A stretch of 60,193 nt of DNA, filler included, from Sphacelaria rigidula (Eukaryota): assembly GCA_964200075.2 (NCBI GenBank). It is 10 parts of 10 records of this genome, joined end to end, with 100 filler letters (N's around TTAATTAATTAA, not from the genome) between each part and the next. Parts side by side here need not be neighbours in the genome. Positions count along the whole stretch, not along the records: positions 18,091 to 24,019 come from CAXNAA020023411.1; 9 more parts are not named here. The stretch is one strand, 5' to 3'. Below the pieces are notes generated by a model. That model did not search any database and was not told the DNA's origin. It worked only from the letters and a program-made list of their open reading frames with translations. Each line of letters begins with the position of its first letter. The first letter of the stretch is position 1. Below are positions 887 to 24,759 of the stretch, one piece after another. Both the position numbers and the translations under genes were made by a program.

Positions 887-1186
887 CTCTCNNNNNNNNN
901 NCGCCGCGCCCACACCACCCCCCGCGCCCACATCACCCCACCACATGATATCCTTCACCTGTTCCCCCCCCCCCCCCCCCCCCCCCCCACTGCCTATGTG
1001 TCCTTGTCACGAAGTATCTTCACCGCCATGTCTCAACCCTCCCCGTCCCTCTTTCAAATAAAGTTTGTTCTTGACATGAGTCGTCATCCACAAGACGTTT
1101 TCAGGTTATTTTCCGAGCACACCGCAGTTTTTACCCAAAAACTAGTTTGAAACCCGAATTTTGGCTTTCCCCGTTACAGATATTAT

Positions 1187-2301
1187 GTGCTCTTGTCTAT
1201 GAAGCGAGTTCCAGCGAATTTTCTTGCTCAATCTTATTCCCCCCCCGTCGTCGTCCTTTCCACAACTCCACGACGAACAAAACACAGGAATAGCTATCCT
1301 TACAAAAAACCGCAGCCACAGCAGTGTCAACTACACCAGGGCCCCGCTTCTGTCTCCCGGCGACGGTCTATTTCCAACTTCCTGCTGCACGCGAGGCGTC
1401 GCTCATTGTCGCCGCAGAGCGTCCAGAGCGTCCAGAGCGTGCCGGGCAGCGGCGTGCAAGGATGGGGGGAAGCGTTTCGCCTTCCTCGAATGCCCACCCC
1501 TGTAGGCGGCGGTGACGGAGGAGAGGCGAGCCCGGCTAGTGCAGTAACACCATCGGCATCAGCAGTGACTACCGCGACAGGGACAACTTCAAACAAGGCA
1601 GGAGAGCGGGCGCGCGCTGCCACGACGGGCGGTGACAGCGACGATTGGAAACTCGACGAGGATTTTTTGAAGGTGAACAGGAAGCATCGCAATGCCGTCG
1701 CTGCCGCCGATGGTGTTGATGTTAGTGATAGCAGTATTGCCAGTGGGAATTGTGATTGCGGTAGCGGCGCCGGCAGTGATCGTACCACGGCGGGGATAAG
1801 CAGGGAAGTCAGAGCGGCAGTAAAATCTCCAGGAGGTGCTGCTGCTCCTGATGCGCACAGTCCTGCCCCGGCGGCGGCGGGTGGGCCCGACGAACAAAAG
1901 CGAGAAGCTCGTAATAACAGTGCTGATGGTGATAGTGGGGTAGAAAAAGGCGAGGCGAGCGGGGGTCCAAGAGGAGGTAGCAGTGTCAAGAGTTTCGGGG
2001 AGGCGAGCGTTTGCAGTGGCTCGGGGAACAGACTAGACAGGGCGAACACGAGCACGTCGTTGGTGTCACCCGCCCGCCCGGCGGAGGCGATGGCAGCGCG
2101 CGAGCAGCACCTGCCGCGACTCAACTCGGTGTCGTGGCGTTTTTTTCGACGTGCACCGAGCTTGTCATCGGACGCTTCCAGCTGGGGGCCGAGCACTGGG
2201 GGCGGTGTTGCGGGGAGCTTGAGCTCCGAGGCGCAGGAAGGCGTAGGGGCGGAAACAAGGGGCAGGAACAAGGGCGGTACTGACGACAGTAAAAATCGTG
2301 T

Positions 2302-2338
<37 letters not shown>

Positions 2339-3007
2339 ACGACGCAAACACGGCACGAAACCACAGATCCGCATCACGGCAACCACCAGGACCGCCAGCA
2401 TAGCCGTCGAAGCGCTGGAGGAGGAGGAAGCTGTGGTCAATATGATATTGTCTTGAAGGACGGCTTGGAGTTCGACGTGCCCCTTGTCAAGCACGGCCTC
2501 CAGCGAGGCCGCATCAACGGACGGTGTAGATTGGTGACGGATCGAAGCTCCCCTCTTGGCTCCGCCAAAGGGGGCGGCGGAGGGAGCAGCATAGCCGAGG
2601 GAGACAGCAGCGCGGGGGAGCGGGGTGAGCGTCGCGCCGGCCTCCGCGTTATTGGCAGCACCCGATCTTTCCGGGGATTGATGAGCGCTTCTAACGGTAA
2701 AAAGGGAAAAATGAAGAAGGGCAGGCGATTTTTCAAGAAACGGCGAGGTAAAGAACGGACGCTGGATAGTGATGGAGGTGGAGATCGAGGGGGATTGACC
2801 AGAGGAGTGGATGAGCTGAGCGGTGGCGTTGGGATGGCGGCCGTGGGCGCCGACGGAGAGAGTACGGCGATCGTAGCGGTGACTGCTCGCGCGGGGGAAG
2901 AATCTGACCGCGAGAAGAGTAAATCGGATATCAGCTCGATAAGGAGTAGTAGTGGGAAGCGCGGCCTTGGTCGCAGCCCCGTCGAGGGAGAGTGCTCTTG
3001 CATGTAA
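1187..3007 (+). CDS. Large low-complexity (G/S/A/R-rich) coding exon of an uncharacterised protein; true ends probably spliced
   Basis: 606-codon stop-free GC-rich frame; candidate acceptor ccgttacag near 1179; basic NLS-like stretch KKGKMKKGRRFFKKRRGK; no confidently recognised domain. Confidence 0.6.
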
Positions 3008-7976: not shown

Positions 7977-10621
7977 TCAGGTTCTGCCAGGGTTTCTTTC
8001 GCTGTCGACGGTTCCCATGGTCCAATGACGATTCCGCCCCCGAGCATGCAGAATGCGCCTTTGTCCTGATCTTGTCAAAGGGTGGCGAGGAACTTTGAAA
8101 TTTCTGCTATCAGAACTGCTGTCGCCAGAACTTCCGAAGCGTTGTTGTGCATTGTCCCCTCGATGCCGTTGCGCTCGTCGACTGGACCTGCGCAGTCCAC
8201 TGTCCGGAGAAGAGCGCTTCGATGATATCGAGTCCTGTGGTGGCTGTCCACCTGGGCCATCATCGCCGTCGATTGGCGCTGCTTTCTCTTCTTCCGATGG
8301 TTTGTCCTCGCCATCACTGAGTTCGACCGCCTTCAGCACCCCCACGATGGCTAGGATCTTGGCCTCTGATTCAAACGTGATGTGTGAAGACTTGACGAGC
8401 TTTGATTCCTGTATCAGCCATACATACCACCAGAGAGAGTGCCGATCGTGCCCCACCAAGATGCCCCGCTTCGCATATGGGTGGAACTTCGCAGCGGCGC
8501 CGCGTTGCTGCTTGTGCTGATGCACGAAACACTCCGATCTCCAAGTACGAAGCCGGTCGTAGTTGGAAGGCTTTCCTGTCAGCCTCGCACATGGGGTCTC
8601 GCCCCCGAGGTAGTCGTGGGGCATCCCTGCGGTCTTGAATTCCGCGTCCGCCACAGCGAAGAACCAGTTGTCCTCTCCGCGCCCCACTTTCACTAGTTGG
8701 CTGCGTGCTATCCTCATCATTTATTGAATTGCACGTTCAGCAATTCCATTACTCTGCGGTGTCCTTGACGGTGAAGAGCGCCATTTGATACCGCGATTGG
8801 TCAGCATGCGTTGAAATGTGATTCACCGCCCAAATTCCCCAGCGCCGTCTCCGCTGATGCATTTAATGACCACTCCCTCACGGGCCATTTCGTCGATGCA
8901 GGCTCCCGTGGCGTCAGTGGCCGCATCTCGTGTCTTGAGTCAAACAACGTGCTTGTCTCGACTGGCCTCGTCCACGAAAACCTGAAAGTATTTCATGCCC
9001 GTGACATCGGCGTGGAAAGGGACTTCAAGATCAGTGTGCACAACTTCACCTGGTGCTTTGGGACTCCTGCCGCCGCGGCCGCAGCTGAGCGCCTCGGACT
9101 TGCATCCCTTGCACACGCTGCATCGCACCTCGGACGCCACCGTGGTATCAGTGACATCGATCAGCCCACGCTTCTCGAGGTGTTTTATGGCAGCCGGATC
9201 GATGTGTCCTAGGGTGCCGTGCCACTCCTTCAATGTGAGGTGCTGCTTTTTGTTTGCAAACGAAGCGTGTGCCGACGCCGCATGTTTGCCATCCACCTGC
9301 AGCGATACCGACAGGGTCAGGAACCTTCTATTCCCGGCTAGGGGGATCTTCGGTCCATCCTTTCTGAACCGAAGGTAGCTCTCCTTCCTGCCGGAATCCA
9401 CGAATTCTCCTCCGTCACGCCGAATCATTCCGGTACTCAGCAGCCGGCAACGCAGTCCAGGGACCCAAAGTACGTCCTTCAGTGTGACCTTTGCCGGAGC
9501 CACCTCTCCCCGAGCACCCACGTGCAATGGCATCTCTCCCATTGCCAGTGCCTGCAGTTGTCCCTTGTTCCCAAATGTACAGCTTCGTTTGACCGTACGT
9601 GTATTTTTGAGATCCCGTATCCAGGGAGTCGCGTGGACATTCGCTCCCGAGTCGCAGAGAATCGACACCTCTGTGTCACTGTTGGTCGACGTGCACATGG
9701 ATACTGCTCGCTCATCTTCGGCTACCTTGTTCATCGTCATGAATGCCTGCGGTCTGTCCCTCCTCCCATTATTTCTGTCGTTCTGTGGAGGGGGTGGGAA
9801 CGTTCGTGCGGGGCTCATCCCCGGCGGTCGTTTAGCTGGAGGTTTGCCATTAAGGTAGGAGCGACACTCCCGCCACTTATGATTTCGCTTCAAACAGTAG
9901 GCGCATTGATTTCTATCGAGTCCCGAGTCGGTTTTGTTGCCGTCGGTTCTCGATTGGAACGCTACTGCCTCGTCGCGGCGTTCCATGTCAGACGTTAGAT
10001 ATGCTGATGATGCTACGACTGCCCGTTTTAGCTCATCGTATGTCATACCTGGCTAGGTTGTTAGCTGGATGAATACTTGTGGAAGCGCCTCCTTGATCCG
10101 AGTAGAAGGGCTGCCCTCTTGGTCTCGTCAGCTTTGGCGTTTCCAATCGCTTCGAATTCCCCCCAGATGGTGTCCAGCTTCACCATATAATCTGCTGATT
10201 CTTCTGCAGAACTGCATTGGAGATCCCGCAGTCTTCGTTCCAATGCAAGTAGTTACACAGGCCGCTCGTCCTGTGCACGTCCTCCGTAAATCCGTTCCAT
10301 CTCCAGCCAGGCTTCCCTGCCGTCAGGGTTGCCGCCGTGCTCGCATCGTGCGACGATGGCTGCGGCTGACCCTCTCGTAGCCTGTGCCAGGAGGAACCAT
10401 AAGGACTGTGTATTGCGTTGGTGCGTTTCGTACGCTCTACGCTGATCAAGTGTTGTGGTAGCTGTCGGAACGGCTGGTGTGGTGTAATCCGGTCGCAGCA
10501 GGGGGTATAGTCCCTTTCCCCCTGCGTATCCAACGATGAAAAGTCTCCATACGTCCCATGTTTCTCGCGAGTGCCCACGAGCGCCTGTCCAGACTGGCAT
10601 CTTGCGTGAGTCTGCCTCCAT
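7977..10621 (-). pseudogene. Disrupted copia gag-pol: Gag, CCHC zinc knuckle, aspartic protease, integrase, SH3-like domain
   Basis: Pieces 10253-10621, 10061-10243, 8940-10046 and 7977-8720. Motifs: CAYCLKRNHKWREC, ILCDSGANVH, WHGTLGH..CSVC, VHTDL..FVDEASR, ISGDGAGEF (about 8830-8857), PQSNGIAERAIQ (about 8724-8760), KFHPYAKRGILVGHD. Stops or frameshifts near 10250, 10050, 8940 and 8722. Confidence 0.9.
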
Positions 10622-17250: not shown

Positions 17251-18508
17251 TTGAAAAGCATCCATCGAATATTCCAAAAACGTTTCATCGACATTCGTGT
17301 AAAACCTAAAGCGGAAAAAACATCATGGACTGTACCGCCGACGTTTGTGGAGAATAAATTGTCGAAATGTCGAAAAGAACATTCATCGACGTTTGTGTCA
17401 AGAACCAAGTGTTGAAAAATATCAGGAGTATCCGTCCACGTCCTACCAGGAACTATTTGTCGAAAACTTCAAGGAAATTTCGTCCACATCTGTGTCTGGT
17501 TAAACAAGCGCCGGGAGCTTCAAGAAAGATCCGACGACACTTTGTGAAAACCACAGGTCGCAAACAGTGTTGAAGGAGGGCACCAGTGGGCATGGTCGTA
17601 CAGTAAGCTGGAAGAGGAGTGAGTATGTCTCAGCAACAAAAAAACAGGGGAAGGTGCTGACGCGAGGACACTTCGTGTGATTGTCTGTTCAAATCGGCTC
17701 GATTGAAACACAGACAGTTGCTTTGCTGTGCAGCACTGTGCATTCGCAAGACGTATAACATGTACACGCGTTTTCATTGCTCTTCGGGCCTGAAAATTGC
17801 TGACAAATATCACCGCGATCGCATCTGGCGAAGGAGGGAGACCAGGAATATAGCAATAAGCCTGCACGGCGGTGAAGTCAGCGTCAACCGTGCGGCAACC
17901 AGAAGACTCCAATTCTCGAACACTTACATGAATGCACTGTTTCTTAAATTCCCTGCACTTGCCATTGTATTTCGCATTGTACGAACTAACNNNNNNNNNN
18001 NNNNNNNNNNNNNNNNNNNNNNNNNNNNNNNNNNTTAATTAATTAANNNNNNNNNNNNNNNNNNNNNNNNNNNNNNNNNNNNNNNNNNNNCATGACTATG
18101 GCATGCATGATCATGAGTACACCCCCCTCGCGAAAGTGGCTGGTTCAGAGTAGCAAAATCTACACGTGAATCGAAATGAAAACAGCCGAGCGCAACGATC
18201 AGCTGGGAATTCCCATGAGTCGGGTCGTTTTTGCAAATGCCGCCCACCTGAGGCGCTTCATGCTGCCTGAAACCAAACATCAGGCGCTGTATGATTCTCT
18301 CCGTAACAGTTATGGGCTGTTTTTTTGGGCGGGGTGGGGGGGGGGGGCTATCGTAGAAAGACTCAACACACCGTACTCCTGTAATATGTAACCCAAACTT
18401 TGCGATCCCCCAAGTATTGTACTACAGTAGTGGGCGTCTAACTATTCATTTTGTGGGATTTTGTGATTTTTTTGCAATTGGCGATCTTCTTGGGCTCTTT
18501 TCGCTTAA

Positions 18509-18757
18509 GACTGCTGCCGAGATAGCCCCCCCCGAACCGGCCAAAAACGTGCGCAGAGGAGATAATCACAAATTCCTTTAGAGCTGATTTCGTGCTGCAC
18601 GACGCGGCTCATTTTGGAGTTACAGCTGATCTTGAACTGCTACACGCCTCTCATGTGGGCGAAATTGCTGCGAACGATCCCAATAGTGAGATCGCAGCCG
18701 GTTCGTTGGTCGGTTTCCGGTGCACTTTTTGAGGGGGGGGCTATCTCGGCATTAGTC
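18509..18757. mobile_element. MITE with poly-C-containing TIRs
   Basis: gactgctgccgagatagccccccc ... ggggggggctatctcggcattagtc; TIR related to the elements at 41821 and 49370; no clean TSD. Confidence 0.7.
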
Positions 18758-19959
18758 ATTACATCATCCCTCACATTGGGGATCTGAAGATGTTTGTATC
18801 CGCTCTACATTCCAAGGGAAAAAATCATTTGTACTCAATGTGGAGCGACTTACGGACTGACCGGCCATGGGGGGTCCCACGTTTCAGCCCAGAGCCCAGA
18901 CACGTGGAATGGCGCAAAAGTTGCGTGGATACCCCTTCCATCAGCGGTCAAGCTTTATCTCCCTTTTGGGCAATCAGGCCGAACGAACCGTGGATTTGGT
19001 GATTCGAACCCGTGATGATTTGTCCGAACCGTGGAACGTTTCGTCGCACCACGGCGCGGTGCAGGGAAGTGATGTCAGGGATTACGCTAGTCCGTCTATC
19101 CTAGCCAACGAACACTTCGTAGCACATGTACTTGAGAATATGAGTGTATCAAATCTTGAGTATAGAAGTAGTTAGAACTTCGATACGTTTCTATAATAAT
19201 CGAGAAGACGGCTCTCGTGAAAACGACTGATACATAATTGTATTCACGCAGCAGAGTTCTGAAAATGAACGGTTTCCTGAAATACCCCATACTCCTGTAG
19301 TATGAACTGTTTTTCTCCATAACTTGTATACGATTTCTCCAAGTGTAAATGCCTTGTTCCATTTTTTTAACGTAAAGGCAGTGTGGTGGCCCACCCCTTC
19401 CACTCTTCTCTTCCCCCGGACTTATAAGGCCTATTATTGTCGAAGAAATGTTTGATTGGAGAAGTCTTGAAAGTTTGAAGAGTTCCAAACGGCTCATAAC
19501 TCTTGAGTTCTGCCGTTGCTGTTAGATAACTCATCTCGGACACGGGTGTCGGTCTCGTCGTTGGCTCCCCTTCGCTGGCCTGATGACGCAATGCTCGCCA
19601 ACCCACGACGCCTTTTATTGTCCGACATGGCCCAGAGTGTCACTGGCAAGATACTTGATGGCTCTCGAACGCTTGCGAGCGCCACGGCATACACACAGGG
19701 CAGCTCTCCGGAGTGCTTCATTACAATGCGACTTTTTCGAACGTCTCCAAAATGAAGCTTCGGAGAGAAATCAAGGCGCTCAAGCAGTGCCCGTATTCGT
19801 CACCTACCTCTCTGCTAGATTCAAACATTTTGCCGTCTACTATCTCAACCATACCCAGAATAACGACATCCCCTGCGCTGACCGGTGCACGTATCCCACC
19901 TTACTTTGGCGGGCTGTCGCTTGCGTATGCCCTTATGTTTCTGGCGTCCTAAACACAAG

Positions 19960-21591
19960 GTTCATCACGTGCTCAAGGACCACCCGTACCGCAAGCTGGC
20001 TTTGAGTCTTCGCCGTCAACATCAGCAGCATCGACCTCGTGTGATCGGCCTCACCGCCTCTTACACATATGCTATCGGGGAGAAGAAGACCAAGGCTTCC
20101 CTGGAAGCGTTATGCCGCGAGTTACATGTCGTTCAGTGCGAGAGTGCCACGCCGGAAGAACTGCACGCCGACGGCTACTACGCCACGGGCGCCCGCGCCG
20201 AAGTTTCGTTGCCCTCGCCTTCAGCATTCACATCATCTGCGGTAGCTGGCATCGTGCCAGAGGCCCTACGAAAGCCGCACGAGATGGGCAAGGTATTTTT
20301 CCAGCGAGAGAAAGAAGGTCGCAGTACTCCCTTCGCCGCCAGGCTGATGGCCTGCGTTCGCGCCATGGAGGAAACGATTGCTGAGTCTGACGAGGTTGAA
20401 TCATTCGCCTCACCGCTGCCCCCTGCAGGGTCGCCCGCCCCCAGGGAATGGGGAGCCTACGCCCATGAGCTCGCTCGCGACGGTGTGGTCGCGCGCAAGG
20501 GCGACAAAGGTGGTTCTCCCTCCAGCGGCCCCAAACGAAGGCGAGAGCGCGATCGTCCCATGCTCGCCCAGCTTGAGCACTGGTACGAGGCTGTCAAAAC
20601 ACTGGTTGTTTCGTGGGAAGAGGACGTGGATATCGCGGCAACCATCCTCGATATGGGCGGCTGCGGGAGATCTCACAAGACGGCAGTTGGGGTGTGGCCG
20701 AGAAAGGTTCGACAGCTAGTCTCCTTCTTCTGGGGGGAAGTTCCGACGGAATTCGCTCGCTTCGAGCATCTCAAGCAGGTGCTCAAGGACAAATACAAAA
20801 AGCACGGCTGTGACGGGAGCAGTGGGACCGACGGAACTGGTTTTCGCGGCATCGTCTTTGTTCAGCAACGCGTGACAACGCATGTCTTGCAACATGTTAT
20901 CTCCAGCGACCCAGACCTGAAGCCGCTCATCTCGCCAGCCTGCTTGTACGCCCACGGGTCTCGCGCAACAGCCTCTCTTTCCGTTTCCAAGGCGGTGGGA
21001 GAGACAAACCTGGGATTGTTTCGCGCGGGCCTCGTAAACCTTCTCATCTGCACGGTTGTAGCAGAGGAAGGCATGGACGTGCCAGCCTCGAACTGCGTGA
21101 TCAGATTTGATCCCGTACACCACGCCGTGTCTCTCGTGCAAGGGCGAGGTCGTGCCCGCCAGGATGGCAGCAGCCACGTAGTCCTCAACGAGCGCCCGGA
21201 CCGTCCATCTCACGTTCTTGAACGCGAAGCGCAACAACAACTGCGTTTTGTACGTGACTTCAAGCCTGACACGCGCAGAGATGCCGCCGCAGATGCCGCT
21301 CTGTTGGCCGCGCAGCGGTCGCGCGAGCGAGGAGCTCGAAGTGTTCTGGAGAAGATGCAGTCGCCGACGTTCGGCGCGCTGAGTGCAGTCAACACTTTCG
21401 CAAAGAAGACAAAGGTGGAACTAGAGGAGAGCTTGTGCAAGGTAGCAAGCGGTTTGTGGAGGTGCACCTTCACGTACGAGTCCTCTCTGCGCAAGCTCCA
21501 TGCTTTCGGAGAGGCTCCGGGAAAGAAGATTGCGAGGAAGCTGGCCGCAGCACAGCTTGTCGCAGATCTCTTGGAGGTAGTGCCGGCGTAA
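19960..21591 (+). CDS. Dicer/RIG-I-like (SF2 DExH) RNA helicase, apparent 3' exon, with C-terminal dsRBD/DUF283-like domain; 5' exon(s) with motifs I-II not found on this contig
   Basis: Candidate acceptor acacaag|gtt at 19959/19960 opens VHHVLKDHPY (tail of the Dicer-type DExHH..KDHPY). Motif III IGLTAS; motif IV GIVFVQQRVT; motif V FRAGLVNLLICTVVAEEGMDVPASNCVIRFD; motif VI VQGRGRAR. C-terminus ALSAVNTFAKK..WRCTFTY..GEAPGKKIARKLAA fits a dsRBD fold. TAA at 21589-21591. Confidence 0.88.
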   Translation, partial: VHHVLKDHPYRKLALSLRRQHQQHRPRVIGLTASYTYAIGEKKTKASLEALCRELHVVQCESATPEELHADGYYATGARAEVSLPSPSAFTSSAVAGIVPEALRKPHEMGKVFFQREKEGRSTPFAARLMACVRAMEETIAESDEVESFASPLPPAGSPAPREWGAYAHELARDGVVARKGDKGGSPSSGPKRRRERDRPMLAQLEHWYEAVKTLVVSWEEDVDIAATILDMGGCGRSHKTAVGVWPRKVRQLVSFFWGEVPTEFARFEHLKQVLKDKYKKHGCDGSSGTDGTGFRGIVFVQQRVTTHVLQHVISSDPDLKPLISPACLYAHGSRATASLSVSKAVGETNLGLFRAGLVNLLICTVVAEEGMDVPASNCVIRFDPVHHAVSLVQGRGRARQDGSSHVVLNERPDRPSHVLEREAQQQLRFVRDFKPDTRRDAAADAALLAAQRSRERGARSVLEKMQSPTFGALSAVNTFAKKTKVELEESLCKVASGLWRCTFTYESSLRKLHAFGEAPGKKIARKLAAAQLVADLLEVVPA

Positions 21592-22861
21592 TCGAAAGTT
21601 CGTATTGTAAATCCTATGTGTTCCGAGCGTTAGAAGTTTACGACGCACTGGCGCGCCCTTCTTTGCCTTGTGTTGTGTACTCTTGTTCTCGACGTCAACA
21701 TTGTGTACGTGTCTGGGACGGACGGGGCGTCCAAAGAGGGCTTGTTTTTTGCTTCTTGTTTTTCGTTCGGCTGAAACGTGTGCCTTTTGTCAGCTATCTC
21801 AACCTCCACTTCAGCACCTATTGAGATAGTCGAGGCTTCTGTCGTCAGACATTGACTTCGCGTATTGTCAGGATTCTGGTCCTGCAGAATCGAGCCCGCG
21901 CTGCCTCCATGATTACGTCACGATTGTTGTTATTTTCTTGCGAGGGTGTTTGACTTCGCGTTCTCTATGCCCCCCGTGTGGTATTGCGGAGGTTGTTTAT
22001 GGGCAGAGCAAGGACATCCTTGTAGATTTGAATGATCGATCGAGTGTCGTGCTGCGTGCGTTTGCGAAGTCATTGTTCAAAGTAGAAACTAGCTTGTTAC
22101 ATGACTGCTACAATGTAATACGGTGTGAATTCTCGATTGATGGTAAATTTCGTGTCATAGACTACTTGGTTTTAGTGCATCATAAATGACCTCTTGGTAT
22201 CTATGATACAAGTGCCATACGTAAGTCCCTGATTCCAGTACGTTGATGCCGCGAACTAGTACTGTGGTGTCGTTGTTGGTGTTGAGGTTTACTCGATTCT
22301 CAACTCGAAAAGGGCCTTATTCCAACATTGATTCATTCATTTGGTTTGTGTTTGTCTTCAGTATACGGTTACCCTTCTTGGTCAAGGTGAAACTGTGTGA
22401 ATCTCGAATGATCCCAATATTCAATGTTGCTCTGTCAGGAAAACAATGACAAGTAGCATAGCCCGAATGAAGACTTGCGGTAAAACTGGAATTGCGACGT
22501 GTTCGGGTACGATTCATACGGTACAATCACTCGTAAATGCATTTCTGGAATACATACATTTAGGCTATGACTCCATCTGCGGCCGCAGAAGAAGCAGAAC
22601 TCCAGATTTTTGCGCAGAAAAATGTCCGCGAACAAAACAGCAGTGATTCCGAACTATGTCGCAGATTTTCAGAAACTAGAGCAGATTATAAAGAGGATTG
22701 AGCATCACTGGGATTACCTGGCGCAGATTTCCAATAGGACAGCGCAGACTTGCTATTTCCCCAGGGAAAACACCTGCAGACAGACAGACATCCCTCCTCC
22801 TTTCAGGGCCCTATTCGTTACTCGTTCATGTTTCACGTTTCACGTCGAAAGCGAAGCCAGG

Positions 22862-22958
22862 CTAGTACTACGGTGGGGGACAGGGACCACGTGAGGAGCT
22901 CTGTTCAAAAGTTGAGTCAAATCAGAGCTCCCCACGCGGTCCCCTACCGTATTACTAG
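22862..22958. repeat. Imperfect hairpin (inverted repeat)
   Basis: ctagtactacggtgggg..gggaccacgtgaggagctctg / cagagctccccacgcggtcccc.taccgtattactag. Confidence 0.6.
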
Positions 22959-24759
22959 CCTAGCTTAAGTTTCGACGTACAAAAAGTAGGGGCAGAAAAA
23001 TGAATTAACAAAAGACGCAGGAAAAAATTAAATCGTAGGAAAACAAAAAAAAGGCGCAGAAAAAGCGAAAAAAACGCAGGAACAGAAAAAAACGCAGAAA
23101 CCGAGGAAAGAAATGAGCAGATGGGGTCAAAATCTACATACAATGCAGGGCACCTCGCCCACTCTACCACTTTTCTCCGGAAACCATCAATACAAAGATG
23201 TTCACTATCTGTCCCTAGCTTTCTACGCGCTGAGCCTATCAGCTACCAACGCTACCCCCTGCGGCACGTCAGGGTGTATACAGCAAAATCCCTGACAGAT
23301 TCATGAGCCCCGTGTGTTCGCAGAGCGTGAAACACGAGCAGACGCTGCACTGTTTGAGACACGCGCGCTAAGTCACTCTCAGGCCTGATTCAAGCTTGAT
23401 CATCCTGGACTTTTCCTGCCTGGGAGAGCTAAAGCCCGCACTCGTGGCGGTAGATATACACCGCATCCGTTCCGGCCGGTGAAGCCCGCACCCGTGCAGC
23501 AGGAGAAGCCCGCATCCATTGCGGCAGGTAAAGCTCGCATCCGTTGCGGCAAGATACTCTAAGCCCGCATCCGCTGCGGTACCTCTGTAACACATAACAG
23601 ATTACCAAAAATCCATGTTCGACATCACAAGGAAATTTGACGGCCCAAACGTCGTCGACTACCGCAAGTGGAAAGCAAAACTACGAGCTATACTTCAAGT
23701 ATCCGCGCACGCAGTCCTCGAACTCCTCGGGTGAAAGGGCTTCATCTGCCCAGTAACATGCGCGCAACCGCCAGAATGGCGATGTGTATTATTCGCTTTA
23801 TTGTTTTTGCTTACCGAGTCATCCCACATCGTACGGTAGGGGGCGAGGGGAGGAGGGTTACTCATTTCTTGCTTGCCTTTGTTGTTTGACCATTGACCCC
23901 GCATCCCTTTCGAGACGGAGCACCGTTCCTACTCCTATTAGAGACACCTTCAACATTCCGGCGCTCACAACGTCTCTTCCATACTTTGCGCAAAAAGCTT
24001 ATAATAGTGGATCCTAGAGNNNNNNNNNNNNNNNNNNNNNNNNNNNNNNNNNNNNNNNNNNNNTTAATTAATTAANNNNNNNNNNNNNNNNNNNNNNNNN
24101 NNNNNNNNNNNNNNNNNNNCTATCACATAATCATCATCCAGAATCCTACATGATAAACGCAATGGCTTGGCACCATTTTGGGCTACAGGCAAGAGCCATG
24201 GATTTCCAGAGACATTTCTCTGTCCAGGAATTGACGTTCCATCACACACTCCTCGCCTAAAAGTGTAGTACAGTCGGTCCAAAAGTAGTCGTGCATGTTG
24301 TATGTACAGTACGGTGGGGACAGACATTACAGTACAGTGCTTTTTTCGTCGACAGCTTTCCCACTCTAAAAGAGCACGATGGCGCTCATGCTGGCTGTGT
24401 TGACTGCTCGCATCGTGTCGTACTCGTCGTGCCCGCCATCGATTTCGAACCCTGTAGTATTCTGTGTACTGAGACGGTTGCTACCGCACTATTGACTGCC
24501 ACGTGAGTATCTTGTGTGCGTCATGGCACAAACCGTATGCTGCATACACTGCACCGCTTGCGGCACTACAACTGTACCAAGCGGCGGTCGGCTGAAATAA
24601 GGGTTGATACGCCTGTCATTTCGATTATTTTAATACCTTTAGCTACTGGGCGTGCGTGCGAGCGAGCGCGCGCGCGAGTGTGTGTGTGTGTGTGTTACCA
24701 TCCCATCTATCCTGTACCTCGACGGGATTATTTACGTATTAGTTCCCCGCAGTTGGGAC

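What the first reader, a model, noticed from the sequence alone, without database searches (positions are those of the whole stretch)
19960..21591. Stand-alone Dicer/RIG-I-type helicase plus dsRBD with no nuclease domains: candidate split-Dicer partner or dsRNA sensor
Seen: HH..KDHPY, GLTAS, GIVFVQQR, EEGMDVP.SNCVIRFD and VQGRGRAR motifs, a long insertion between motifs III and IV, a dsRBD/DUF283-like domain, then a TAA stop. No PAZ or RNase III sequence is recognisable in the remaining 2.4 kb of the contig. Established: this motif set is shared by Dicer, RIG-I/MDA5/LGP2 and nematode DRH helicases; Dicers continue into PAZ and RNase III, and RLRs end in a Zn-binding CTD rather than a dsRBD. 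Inference: the protein is the N-terminal half of Dicer encoded on its own, and could work in trans with a helicase-less Dicer or as an antiviral dsRNA sensor in an alga. Caveats: the N-terminus is missing, and possible donors at about 21577 (gag|gtagtg) and 21588 (c|gtaatc) could splice past the stop.
Basis: partly seen in the sequence, partly recalled or inferred. Interest (0 to 1): 0.72.

Follow-up and report, generated by a model that had tools for sequence, protein, structure and literature searches.

The report
Stand-alone Dicer-like helicase with dsRBD

Summary
Window 19960-21588 (+), with its stop at 21589-21591, is one uninterrupted terminal exon on a 5.9-kb contig. A source names the matching public protein as from the brown alga Sphacelaria rigidula. 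The exon encodes helicase motifs II (tail) to VI, an all-helical insertion, a two-helix pincer and a C-terminal dsRBD (model pLDDT 84; Z 12 to solved dsRBDs). No PAZ, RNase III, RIG-I CTD or RdRP coding exists anywhere in the window.

The protein is not a broken Dicer. It belongs to a sharply bounded eukaryotic family (186 clusters at E<=1e-30; median 626 aa; motif II DEVHH). In 140 of 143 members with a dsRBD hit, the protein ends within 20 residues of that domain. Brown algae also have paralogues with two or three dsRBDs.

The family is monophyletic, but its position relative to Dicer, RLR/DRH, RdRP-fused helicases and archaeal Hef is unresolved.

The missing N-terminus is an assembly artefact: a 102-aa N-terminal fragment lies on another contig of the same assembly.

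The same architecture, and the "works with a helicase-less Dicer" idea, were published for Thalassiosira (2009-2011) and Emiliania (2016). Ectocarpus is reported to have a canonical Dicer, which weakens the split-Dicer reading here. Function is inferred to be a dsRNA-dependent ATPase in small-RNA pathways.

The parts
18091..19959 (+). 3' part of a long intron. It holds no N-terminal exon and includes high-copy repeats (about 18091-18288 and 18487-19080).
   Evidence: tblastn of 4 full-length homologues found no N-terminal match in the window (best other hit E 0.2). Contig depth here is 1e3-1e6 against about 70-200 in the exon. 0 of 4 ORFs tested here have a Pfam domain.
19958..19959 (+). Splice acceptor AG, phase 0, between motif II 'DE' (upstream exon) and 'VHH'.
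   Evidence: Sequence read. Homology starts at 19957/19960. Contigs of runs X1-X3 start to lie on the window at 19958. Brown-alga models P0273 and P0274 run into an intron right after FDE(V), and P0002, P0003 and P0004 read out of it before VHH.
19960..21588 (+). Terminal coding exon, 543 codons: C-terminal part of Hel1, insertion domain, Hel2, pincer, dsRBD.
   Evidence: The window keeps the family consensus residue at 106 of 109 columns that are at least 90% conserved. AlphaFold2 model mean pLDDT 84.9, pTM 0.85.
19960..20061 (+). Motif II tail (VHHVLKDHPY, 19960-19989) to motif III (GLTAS, 20047-20061).
   Evidence: Aligned to residues 143-180 of the ancestral Dicer helicase (DECHHAVKNHPYR...GLTAS).
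20062..20841 (+). Insertion between the two RecA-like domains. It is all-helical in the model (eight helices between residues 132 and 309).
   Evidence: secondary structure. Structural alignments of 350-420 residues to MDA5, RIG-I, LGP2, DRH-1 and Dicers, against about 145 residues for plain DEAD-box helicases. No profile similarity to the inserts of Dicer, RLR, RdRP-helicase or Hef (prob 0.5-4.2%).
20482..20544 (+). 63-nt low-complexity stretch (21 aa) that the public gene model removes as an intron; it is probably coding.
   Evidence: Comparison of P0002 with P0001. The second copy P0003 keeps it. The X1-X3 contigs lay 2336-2339 of their letters on the 2333-2336 window bases 19958-22290/22293 as single pieces. 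Model pLDDT is 59-69 here.
20842..21159 (+). Hel2 RecA-like domain with motif IV (20842-20871), motif V (21052-21084) and motif VI (21139-21159).
   Evidence: Pfam Helicase_C 5.5e-9, residues 351-425.
21208..21351 (+). Two long helices after motif VI (residues 443-459 and 468-490), a pincer-like element.
   Evidence: RLR alignments end within the first helix, at about residue 465. The name 'pincer' is recalled from RLR structures.
21370..21588 (+). C-terminal dsRBD (alpha-beta-beta-beta-alpha) with KKxAK-type motif GKKIARK at 21520-21540.
   Evidence: Family profile against PDB: Staufen1 4.9e-10, Loquacious 1.1e-9, R2D2 1.2e-9, TRBP 1.5e-8. Model pLDDT 84.1. Foldseek TRBP dsRBD3 9.7e-5, TMq 0.77. 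VIA-align Z 12.2, rmsd 1.6 over 70 residues to Loquacious dsRBD3; nearly all of the 50 listed entries are described as dsRBD, RNase III or Dicer structures.
21589..21591 (+). TAA stop, conserved end of the protein.
21592..22293 (+). 3' untranslated region, at least this far.
   Evidence: One contig in each of runs X1-X3 (one study; RNA is only a guess) lies unbroken on 19958-22290/22293. No Pfam domain in the one ORF tested inside this stretch, 21830-22186.

Best explanation
Shown: window 19960-21591 is the last exon of a brown-alga gene. The public protein on a contig of identical length is named by its source as Sphacelaria rigidula. The gene encodes a stand-alone superfamily-2 helicase of the Hef/Dicer/RIG-I-like group. 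Its layout is RecA-like domain 1 (N-terminal part on another contig), an all-helical insertion, RecA-like domain 2, a two-helix pincer and one C-terminal dsRBD, followed by a conserved stop. It belongs to a distinct, conserved, eukaryote-only family (brown algae, dinoflagellates, green algae, an N-terminal fragment from a diatom, and many marine metagenome proteins). No member found carries RNase III, PAZ or a RIG-I-type CTD. Inferred: the protein binds double-stranded RNA through the helicase and the dsRBD, and uses ATP to clamp or translocate on it. It would act as an accessory factor of small-RNA or RNAi pathways, in the way DRH-1 and DRH-3 help Dicer and RdRP in nematodes, rather than as a nuclease or as a signalling receptor.
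For: Identity and boundaries. Intactness: 106 of 109 highly conserved columns are kept and all catalytic motifs present on the exon are intact.

Family: the family HMM scores members at 530-800 bits. Every Dicer, RLR, DRH, RdRP-helicase and Hef tested scores 90-205 bits. The family is monophyletic at 100* (57 rows) and 100/100* (31 rows). There are 186 clusters at E<=1e-30 among 1.84 billion representatives.

Architecture: Pfam on 63 members gives Helicase_C in 63, ResIII in 60, DEAD in 60 and dsrm in 12; PAZ, Ribonuclease_3, Dicer_dimer and RIG-I_C-RD are not among the 8 families matched. Of 160 family proteins of at least 550 aa, 143 hit the C-terminal dsRBD profile, and in 140 of those the protein ends within 20 residues of it. 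Paralogues P0122 and P0124 carry three dsRBD repeats.

Fold: the whole model has pLDDT 84.9. Best structural matches are MDA5, RIG-I and the LGP2:MDA5 filament at Z 19.9, DRH-1 at 19.1 and LGP2 at 18.9. DCL4 (17.9), Dcr-2 (17.0) and the ancestral Dicer helicase (16.8) align through to residue 569. The dsRBD model gives Z 12.2.

N-terminus: P0310, a 102-aa partial protein of the same species on another contig of 5686 b, carries motif I (PTGSGKT) and the N-terminal helicase sequence up to ..TPEAF. It is 61-64% identical to single-dsRBD orthologues and 55-58% to multi-dsRBD paralogues.

Link to RNAi, literature only: the same domain combination was proposed as an RNAi component in T. pseudonana (passages read in PMC2724275, PMC3155517 and PMC3145265) and noted in E. 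huxleyi (PMC4839659).
Against: No functional data exist for any member, so the role in RNAi rests on analogy.

The insertion domain has no detectable sequence similarity to Hel2i of Dicer or RLR.

The dsRBD lacks the usual GPxH loop (my reading of alignment A2). The window's own protein does not reach Pfam dsrm even at E<=1.

Its best structural ties include protein-binding dsRBDs (TRBP domain 3, Loquacious domain 3, Staufen domain 5). The domain could therefore mediate protein contacts instead of RNA binding.

The deep position of the family is unresolved. AU tests do not reject a grouping with RLR/DRH (p 0.22), Dicer (p 0.38) or even Hef (p 0.19). FANCM is structurally almost as close as the RLRs (Z 18.8).

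Expression is not shown: no run is on record as RNA.
Confidence: 0.6

Rival explanations
1. Split-Dicer partner. The protein supplies, in trans, the helicase and DUF283 half to an RNase III Dicer that has lost its own helicase.
For: The C-terminal dsRBD aligns with Dicer's post-helicase DUF283 region (prob 85.9, E 5.2e-6, 69 columns, 12 Dicers). The same test against 6 RLR/DRH gives prob 0.2. Dicer structures align over the whole model to residue 569. In T. pseudonana a helicase-dsRBD protein coexists with a helicase-less Dicer, and the authors suggested that the two act together (PMC3155517 passage).
Against: [quoted passage not shown] The family is a long-stemmed separate lineage, not a recent fission of a Dicer. 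True Dicers match the window protein only at E 1e-12 or weaker, over 15-29% of the query. I did not examine the Dicer of Sphacelaria or of any other carrier.
Confidence: 0.15
2. RLR-like cytosolic sensor. The protein detects viral dsRNA and triggers a defence response by signalling rather than by feeding RNAi.
For: The best whole-model structural matches are MDA5, RIG-I, LGP2 and DRH-1 (Z 18.9-19.9, 350-380 residues aligned). The profile score to LGP2 is 188 bits, second only to the ancestral Dicer helicase. LGP2 is likewise a helicase without a signalling domain (recalled).
Against: No member has a CARD or other signalling domain, and none has a RIG-I_C-RD (not among the families matched in 63 members). 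The C-terminal region does not resemble the RLR post-helicase region. One of the two trees places RLR/DRH outside a Dicer + RdRP-helicase + family clade (97/93*); the other tree leaves this unresolved.
Confidence: 0.15
3. Hef/FANCM-type DNA helicase acting on stalled forks or branched DNA.
For: Archaeal Hef-type genes are the only prokaryotic relatives found. The best NCBIfam hit is Hef nuclease. FANCM is structurally close (Z 18.8). One family member, P0127, is fused to an ERCC4 domain. The AU test does not reject family + Hef (p 0.19).
Against: Hef model scores are 51-113 bits against a cut-off of 610. PDB profile scores are 142 bits for Hef and 116 for FANCM, against 171-257 for Dicers and 142-188 for RLR/DRH. 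The conserved C-terminal domain is a dsRBD, an RNA-duplex module. The ERCC4 of P0127 is N-terminal, occurs in 1 protein only, and may be a merged gene model.
Confidence: 0.05
4. Dead gene fragment or assembly artefact with no function.
For: The N-terminal third of the helicase is missing from the contig. The contig ends in high-copy repeats. No RNA run is on record.
Against: The 543-codon frame is open and 106 of 109 conserved positions are kept. A second copy, about 94% identical in DNA, is present in the same organism's runs and also keeps the frame (P0003). An N-terminal fragment exists on another contig.
Confidence: 0.03

Closest known systems
Helicase-dsRBD 'Dicer-like' proteins of diatoms and haptophytes (T. 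pseudonana Tp3_20605; E. huxleyi models)
   Same: Same described architecture: DEAD/Helicase_C followed by a C-terminal dsRBD, with no RNase III, and a helicase most similar to Dicer helicases (passages read in PMC2724275, PMC3155517, PMC3145265 and PMC4839659). A diatom N-terminal fragment (Cyclotella, P0325) matches the family's N-terminal region at 49% identity. The Atlas's nearest cluster to P0040 is mostly diatom (lead only).
   Different: I could not fetch Tp3_20605 itself, so identity of family is probable but untested. Those papers called the combination unique to one organism. Here it is a family of 186 clusters spread over several algal and protist lineages.
Dicer N-terminal module (helicase + DUF283), e.g. 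the resurrected Dicer helicase AncD1D2, plant DCLs, fly Dcr-2
   Same: Best sequence match (257 bits for the family profile). A dsRBD-fold domain follows directly after the pincer. The motif 'HH..K.HPYR' follows DE.
   Different: No PAZ and no RNase III. Motif II is DEVHH rather than the DEC/A-H of most Dicers tested. The C-terminal domain is closer to canonical dsRBDs (about 1e-9) than to DUF283 (9.4e-4). It is a separate clade.
RIG-I-like receptors (RIG-I, MDA5, LGP2) and nematode DRH-1/DRH-3
   Same: Overall helicase fold with insertion and pincer (Z 18.9-19.9). Stand-alone proteins of similar size to LGP2. DRH proteins are the precedent for such a helicase assisting Dicer (abstracts listed).
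   Different: The C-terminus is a dsRBD, not the zinc-binding CTD. There are no CARDs. The family is not nested in the RLR/DRH clade.
Helicase-RdRP fusions (Dictyostelium Rrp type; here P0130 and P0133)
   Same: A Dicer-like helicase detached from Dicer and placed elsewhere in the RNAi machinery (PMC4791657 passages). They are sister to the family in one tree (90/89).
   Different: No RdRP domain is present here. The sister grouping joins two long branches under a simple model and is absent from the mixture-model tree.
Archaeal Hef / eukaryotic FANCM
   Same: Same helicase superfamily. These are the only prokaryotic relatives: 27-53% identity over Hel2 only, in 79 archaeal loci and 1 'bacterium' locus among the 80 kept.
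   Different: No C-terminal ERCC4 nuclease. Scores are far below the Hef model cut-off. The family carries a dsRBD instead.

Membership tests
Stand-alone DEVH helicase-dsRBD family (unnamed; brown-alga 'DEAD box helicase', Symbiodinium 'Dicer-like 2a') | High score to the family helicase profile, well separated from other helicases | tested here: met
   The window exon scores 530 bits although it lacks the N-terminus. Members score 530-800 bits; the Dicer, RLR, DRH, RdRP-helicase and Hef proteins tested score 90-205 bits.
Stand-alone DEVH helicase-dsRBD family | Falls inside the family clade | tested here: met
   It groups with the brown-alga members at 100* inside a family clade of 100* and 100/100*.
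Stand-alone DEVH helicase-dsRBD family | Motif II DEVHH | tested here: inconclusive
   VHH is the first codon triplet of the exon; DE lies on the missing upstream exon. 34 of 34 full-length family rows have DEVHH.
Stand-alone DEVH helicase-dsRBD family | Protein ends in a dsRBD with no further domain | tested here: met
   dsRBD at 21370-21588, then TAA. The same holds in 140 of 143 members with a dsRBD hit.
Stand-alone DEVH helicase-dsRBD family | Complete helicase with motifs Q, I, Ia and Ib | tested here: inconclusive
   These are absent from this contig. A matching 102-aa fragment of the same species lies on another contig, but its link to this exon is not shown.
Dicer / Dicer-like (RNase III class 4) | Two RNase III domains | tested here: not met
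   Ribonuclease_3 is not among the families matched in the 63 members. tblastn of 8 Dicers against the window hits only the helicase. The stop is conserved.
Dicer / Dicer-like | PAZ/platform domain | tested here: not met
   PAZ is not among the families matched in the 63 members; nothing in the window.
Dicer / Dicer-like | DUF283 (dsRBD fold) right after the helicase | tested here: met
   hhalign prob 85.9, E 5.2e-6 to the post-helicase region of 12 Dicers. Structural alignments to DCL4, Dcr-2 and AncD1D2 reach residue 569. Pfam Dicer_dimer itself is not matched in any of the 63 members.
RIG-I-like receptors | Zinc-binding C-terminal domain (RIG-I_C-RD) | tested here: not met
   RIG-I_C-RD is not among the families matched in the 63 members. 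hhalign to the RLR/DRH post-helicase region gives prob 0.2.
RIG-I-like receptors | Helicase with helical insertion (Hel2i) and pincer | tested here: met
   Model helices 132-309 and 443-490. 350-380 residues align to MDA5, RIG-I and LGP2 at Z 18.9-19.9. The insertion sequence is not similar.
Hef / FANCM | Hef-type helicase reaching the NCBIfam Hef model cut-off, with an ERCC4 nuclease domain after the helicase | tested here: not met
   51-113 bits against a cut-off of 610. ERCC4 is not among the families matched in the 63 members. One separate relative, P0127, has an N-terminal ERCC4.
dsRBD (Pfam dsrm, PF00035) | alpha-beta-beta-beta-alpha fold matching solved dsRBDs | tested here: met
   pLDDT 84.1; H10-20, E24-31, E37-44, E49-56, H59-77. 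Z 12.2, rmsd 1.6 over 70 residues. Profile E 4.9e-10 to Staufen1.
dsRBD (Pfam dsrm, PF00035) | RNA-contact motifs (KKxAK at helix 2; GPxH loop) | tested here: inconclusive
   The two lysines of the KKxAK motif are invariant or at least 90% conserved (K59, K60; window GKKIARK). No GPxH-like loop is seen in alignment A2 (my reading; the motif names are recalled). Pfam dsrm matches 12 of 63 members, but not the window protein.

The most novel reading that the evidence does not exclude
The family is a surviving free-standing form of the module that became Dicer's N-terminal half. It would be an ancient eukaryotic helicase-plus-dsRBD gene, a fourth lineage beside Dicer, RLR/DRH and the RdRP-fused helicases. 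Its dsRBD would be the still-canonical counterpart of Dicer's degenerate DUF283. Dicer would then have arisen by fusing such a gene to PAZ-RNase III. In algae the free form would still deliver dsRNA to RNase III or RdRP partners.
Probability: 0.15. Interest if true: 0.7.

Novelty: new member of a known kind. Interest (0 to 1): 0.38.

Why it matters
The gene itself is ordinary: a public but unnamed brown-alga protein with many relatives. What may matter is the family. It is conserved, eukaryote-only and uncharacterised, and it combines the Dicer/RIG-I type of helicase with a dsRBD in the place of Dicer's DUF283.

Between 2009 and 2016, algal small-RNA papers treated such proteins as one-off oddities. 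Here the family spans brown algae, dinoflagellates and green algae, with a matching N-terminal fragment from a diatom, and it has paralogues with up to three dsRBDs. If it is an RNAi cofactor, it is a handle on poorly known algal small-RNA and antiviral pathways, and on how Dicer was assembled from its domains.

Its deep placement could not be resolved, so the evolutionary claim remains open.

Tried and rejected
Own genome: none is held, so the Dicer of this species could not be examined.

Expression: no RNA holder is listed. Runs X1-X3 are only guessed to be RNA, so their contigs are a hint, not proof.

Viral origin: 600 pattern matches in viral contigs, and none encodes a relative.

Prokaryotic members: only Hef-like matches over Hel2. 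In metagenome contigs only L081 (38% identity, nearly full length) and L082 look like family members; the other 78 loci match Hel2 only.

Insertion domain: hhalign against the inserts of 13 Dicers, 6 RLR/DRH, 2 RdRP-helicases and 9 Hef gave prob 0.5-4.2%. Homology to Hel2i therefore rests on the predicted fold alone.

Deep phylogeny: the mixture-model quick tree leaves Dicer, RLR+DRH, RdRP-helicase and the family as an open four-way fork. An AU test on that 57-row set did not finish in two tries. On the 31-row LG+G4 set no alternative was rejected. The split 'Hef against the rest' (100*) only shows that Hef is one group, not that the family is nearer to Dicer than to Hef.

Earlier findings of this scan: nothing by sequence or by words.

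Literature: searches found no paper that describes this family beyond the diatom and haptophyte notes. Subscription journals and supplements (for example the domain figures of PMC3155517 and PMC4791657, and the Ectocarpus genome paper) were not seen.

Flanks: no tRNA, no Rfam family, and 0 of 10 ORFs with a Pfam domain.
Full report
SETTING. The window is about ten short contigs joined by runs of N with stop linkers. The finding lies on the contig 18091-24019, which is 5929 bases long. The frame 19882-21591 (+) is open for 569 codons. A search of the large protein collection returned P0002, a 533-aa 'unnamed protein product' that its source names as Sphacelaria rigidula. It sits on a contig of exactly 5929 bases and matches the ORF: 96% identity by BLASTP, and 100% over the matched stretches by phmmer. 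The window is therefore brown-alga nuclear DNA, and the gene already has a flawed public model.

Pfam finds Helicase_C at 5.5e-9. PDB sequences rank a resurrected Dicer helicase (4e-20), DCL1, MDA5, LGP2, Dicer, RIG-I and DRH far above Hef (1.8e-5) and FANCM (2.9e-4).

EXON BOUNDARIES. Four full-length relatives align to the window only from 19957 (three of the four; P0004 from 19930, because its own model reads into the intron) to 21585-21588. No N-terminal exon is found anywhere in the window; the best other hit has E 0.2.
- An AG lies at 19958-19959, so the exon begins at 19960 with V of 'VHH'.
- The 26 codons before that are intron read-through.
- The same intron, between 'DE' and 'VHH', is seen from both sides in gene models of other brown algae (P0273 and P0274 upstream; P0003 and P0004 downstream).

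NO NUCLEASE, AND THE STOP IS REAL. Twelve full-length Dicer, RLR, DRH and helicase-RdRP proteins hit only 19957-21279 by tblastn over the whole window. None of ten flank ORFs has a Pfam domain. Brown-alga orthologues end ..VPA or ..VAA exactly as the window does. Of 160 family proteins of at least 550 aa that I held, 143 hit the C-terminal domain profile. In 140 of those the protein ends within 20 residues of that domain.

Three runs from one study, whose kind is only guessed to be RNA, each hold one contig of 4341-4892 nt that behaves as follows:
- It begins to lie on the window at 19958.
- It runs unbroken through the two candidate donors and the stop, to 22290 or 22293.
- It continues at both ends with letters that are not on this contig.
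- It differs from the window at 148-152 positions.

A DNA run of the same organism shows both sets of letters at about half depth. So there is a second copy or haplotype, probably P0003 (88% identical protein). The pattern looks like a spliced messenger of that copy, but because the run type is a guess I count it only as a hint.

THE MISSING N-TERMINUS IS AN ASSEMBLY MATTER. The contig ends, and much of 18091-19080, are repeats of very high depth. A search with the first 125 residues of an orthologue found P0310, a 102-aa partial protein of Sphacelaria rigidula on another 5686-b contig. It carries motif I (PTGSGKT) and the N-terminal helicase sequence up to ..TPEAF. It is closer to the single-dsRBD orthologues (61-64%) than to the multi-dsRBD paralogues (55-58%). 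Whether it belongs to this copy or to the second one is not known.

The exon looks functional: at 109 columns that are at least 90% conserved in the other 62 aligned members, the window has the consensus residue at 106, and the three changes are conservative. The public model also removes 20482-20544 as an intron. The second copy and the laid contigs keep that stretch, so that intron is doubtful.

THE FAMILY. Relatives of 40-65% identity over 90-97% of the exon occur in the following groups:
- brown algae: Ectocarpus, Laminaria, Scytosiphon, Pylaiella, Choristocarpus;
- dinoflagellates: Symbiodinium, Effrenium, Alexandrium, Prorocentrum;
- green algae: Mesostigma and Cymbomonas; for Tetraselmis and Ulva only N-terminal fragments were found;
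- a diatom (Cyclotella): an N-terminal fragment only;
- many unnamed marine proteins.

Further family properties:
- An exhaustive search counts 186 clusters at E<=1e-30, 717 at 1e-10 and 2782 at 1e-3.
- Median length is 626 aa.
- A family helicase profile scores members at 530-800 bits and every outsider tested at 90-205 bits.
- Motif II is DEVHH in 34 of 34 full-length rows, while it varies in the other groups.
- Pfam on 63 members finds Helicase_C in 63, ResIII in 60, DEAD in 60 and dsrm in 12. PAZ, Ribonuclease_3, Dicer_dimer, RIG-I_C-RD and ERCC4 are not among the 8 families matched.
- Longer relatives are brown-alga paralogues with two or three tandem copies of the C-terminal domain (P0122, P0124), one protein with a low-complexity tail, and one (P0127) with an N-terminal ERCC4 domain that may be a merged model.
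- True Dicers match at E 1e-12 or weaker, over 15-29% of the query.
- No relative was found in viral contigs.
- In prokaryotic genomes only Hef-type genes match, over Hel2 alone: 79 archaeal loci and one 'bacterium' locus among the 80 kept.

DOMAINS. The AlphaFold2 model of the window protein (63-row alignment; pLDDT 84.9, pTM 0.85) has five parts:
- a disordered read-through (residues 1-31);
- the rest of RecA domain 1;
- an all-helical insertion (eight helices between 132 and 309);
- RecA domain 2;
- two long helices (443-459 and 468-490), followed by an alpha-beta-beta-beta-alpha domain.

Structural alignment gives the following:
- MDA5, RIG-I and the LGP2:MDA5 filament at Z 19.9, DRH-1 at 19.1, LGP2 at 18.9 and FANCM at 18.8;
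- DCL4 at 17.9, Dcr-2 at 17.0 and the ancestral Dicer helicase at 16.8;
- rmsd of 6-11 over 350-420 residues in all of these;
- plain DEAD-box helicases align over only about 145 residues.

RLR alignments stop near residue 465, whereas the three Dicer alignments run to residue 569, that is through the last domain.

THE C-TERMINAL DOMAIN. Folded alone, it has pLDDT 84.1. It matches solved dsRBDs: Foldseek gives TRBP domain 3 at 9.7e-5 with TMq 0.77. VIA-align gives Z 12.2 with rmsd 1.6 over 70 residues to Loquacious domain 3, and nearly all of the 50 listed entries are described as dsRBD, RNase III or Dicer structures. Its sequence profile finds Staufen1 (4.9e-10), Loquacious, R2D2, TRBP, RDE-4, PACT and PKR, and also residues 580-631 of the ancestral Dicer helicase construct at 9.4e-4.

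By hhalign it aligns over 69 columns with the post-helicase region of 12 Dicers (prob 85.9, E 5.2e-6), but not with that of 6 RLR/DRH (prob 0.2).

Three cautions apply:
- The lysines of KKxAK are conserved, but a GPxH-type loop is not (alignment A2; the motif names are recalled).
- The best structural ties include protein-binding dsRBDs.
- The insertion domain shows no profile similarity to any other group's insert.

PLACE IN THE SUPERFAMILY. With archaeal Hef as outgroup, a 57-row mixture-model quick tree makes the family one clade (100*, stem 1.7). It leaves Dicer (90), RLR+DRH (99*), helicase-RdRP (100*) and the family as an open fork.

A 31-row careful LG+G4 tree places RLR/DRH outside a clade of Dicer + helicase-RdRP + family (97/93*). 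It joins the family to the helicase-RdRP pair at 90/89. That pairing joins two long branches under the simpler model, so I do not trust it.

AU tests on that set reject nothing: family+RLR/DRH p 0.22, family+Dicer p 0.38, family+Hef p 0.19. The honest statement is that this is a separate deep lineage whose sister is unknown. It does not group with Hef in either tree, but that grouping is not statistically excluded.

WHAT IS KNOWN. The following passages were read:
- De Riso et al. [quoted passage not shown]
- Norden-Krichmar et al. 2011 (PMC3155517) suggest that it may act together with the helicase-less Dicer.
- Maumus et al. 2011 (PMC3145265) repeat this, and state that Ectocarpus has a canonical Dicer-like protein.
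- Helicase domains moved from Dicer to RdRP are discussed in PMC4791657.

Seven searches found no paper that defines this family or tests a member. Supplements and subscription journals were not seen.

VERDICT. The finding is real and well read. The gene is a new member of an already noticed but uncharacterised kind.
- Most likely role: a dsRNA-dependent ATPase that assists small-RNA biogenesis or amplification (inferred; about 0.6 together with the identity claims).
- Rivals: split-Dicer partner 0.15, RLR-like sensor 0.15, DNA helicase 0.05, dead fragment 0.03.
- Boldest reading left open: the family is the free-living form of the module that became Dicer's N-terminal half (0.15).

Noticed in passing
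window 19958-22293 (runs X1-X3 and X5): A second copy or haplotype of the gene, about 94% identical in DNA (148-152 differences over about 2336 bases, 15 gaps), is present in the same organism's runs. A DNA run shows both sets of letters at about half depth. P0003 (88% identical protein) is probably this copy.
   Followed up: partly
window 20482-20544: The public gene model (P0002) starts inside the intron (MPLCFWRPKHK..) and splices out 63 nt that the second copy and the laid contigs keep. The public model is probably wrong at both places.
   Followed up: partly
P0122, P0123, P0124, P0125, P0027 (brown-alga proteins, not in the window): Brown algae have a paralogue of the helicase with two or three tandem C-terminal dsRBD repeats separated by low-complexity linkers. 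In Ectocarpus it lies on the same 3.6-Mb contig as the single-dsRBD gene, and two consecutively numbered gene models in another data set (g12967, g12968) suggest a tandem pair.
   Followed up: partly
P0127 (1662 aa, unnamed eukaryote data set): One family member carries an ERCC4 nuclease domain about 500 residues upstream of the helicase. This is either a real fusion reminiscent of Hef/FANCM in reverse order, or a merged gene model.
   Followed up: no
window 7980-10052 (-), a different contig: Two ORFs carry retrotransposon polyprotein pieces (SH3_retrovirus 1e-13; Pol_BBD 2.5e-10; gag_pre-integrs 2.6e-4). This is a Ty1/copia-type element fragment.
   Followed up: no
window 1151-3004 (+), a different contig: A 618-codon open frame with no Pfam match.
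   Followed up: no
window 18091-18288, 18487-19080, 23833-24019: Very high-copy repeats (summed contig depth 1e4-1e6) lie at both ends of the contig and inside the intron. Many contigs join 18127 to 23921/23922 on opposite strands, so the two contig ends carry inverted copies of one repeat. This explains why the assembly broke here.
   Followed up: no
window 23430-23579: Tandem array of a 25-nt unit (5.8 copies, 71% matches) downstream of the gene.
   Followed up: no
L081 (metagenome contig, 7.1 kb): This is the only nearly full-length family member found in the metagenome contig collection. It sits between closely packed long ORFs (a PLD-like protein of 571 aa and a 763-aa protein with a phosphoribosyltransferase domain), which suggests a compact genome as carrier.
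   Followed up: no
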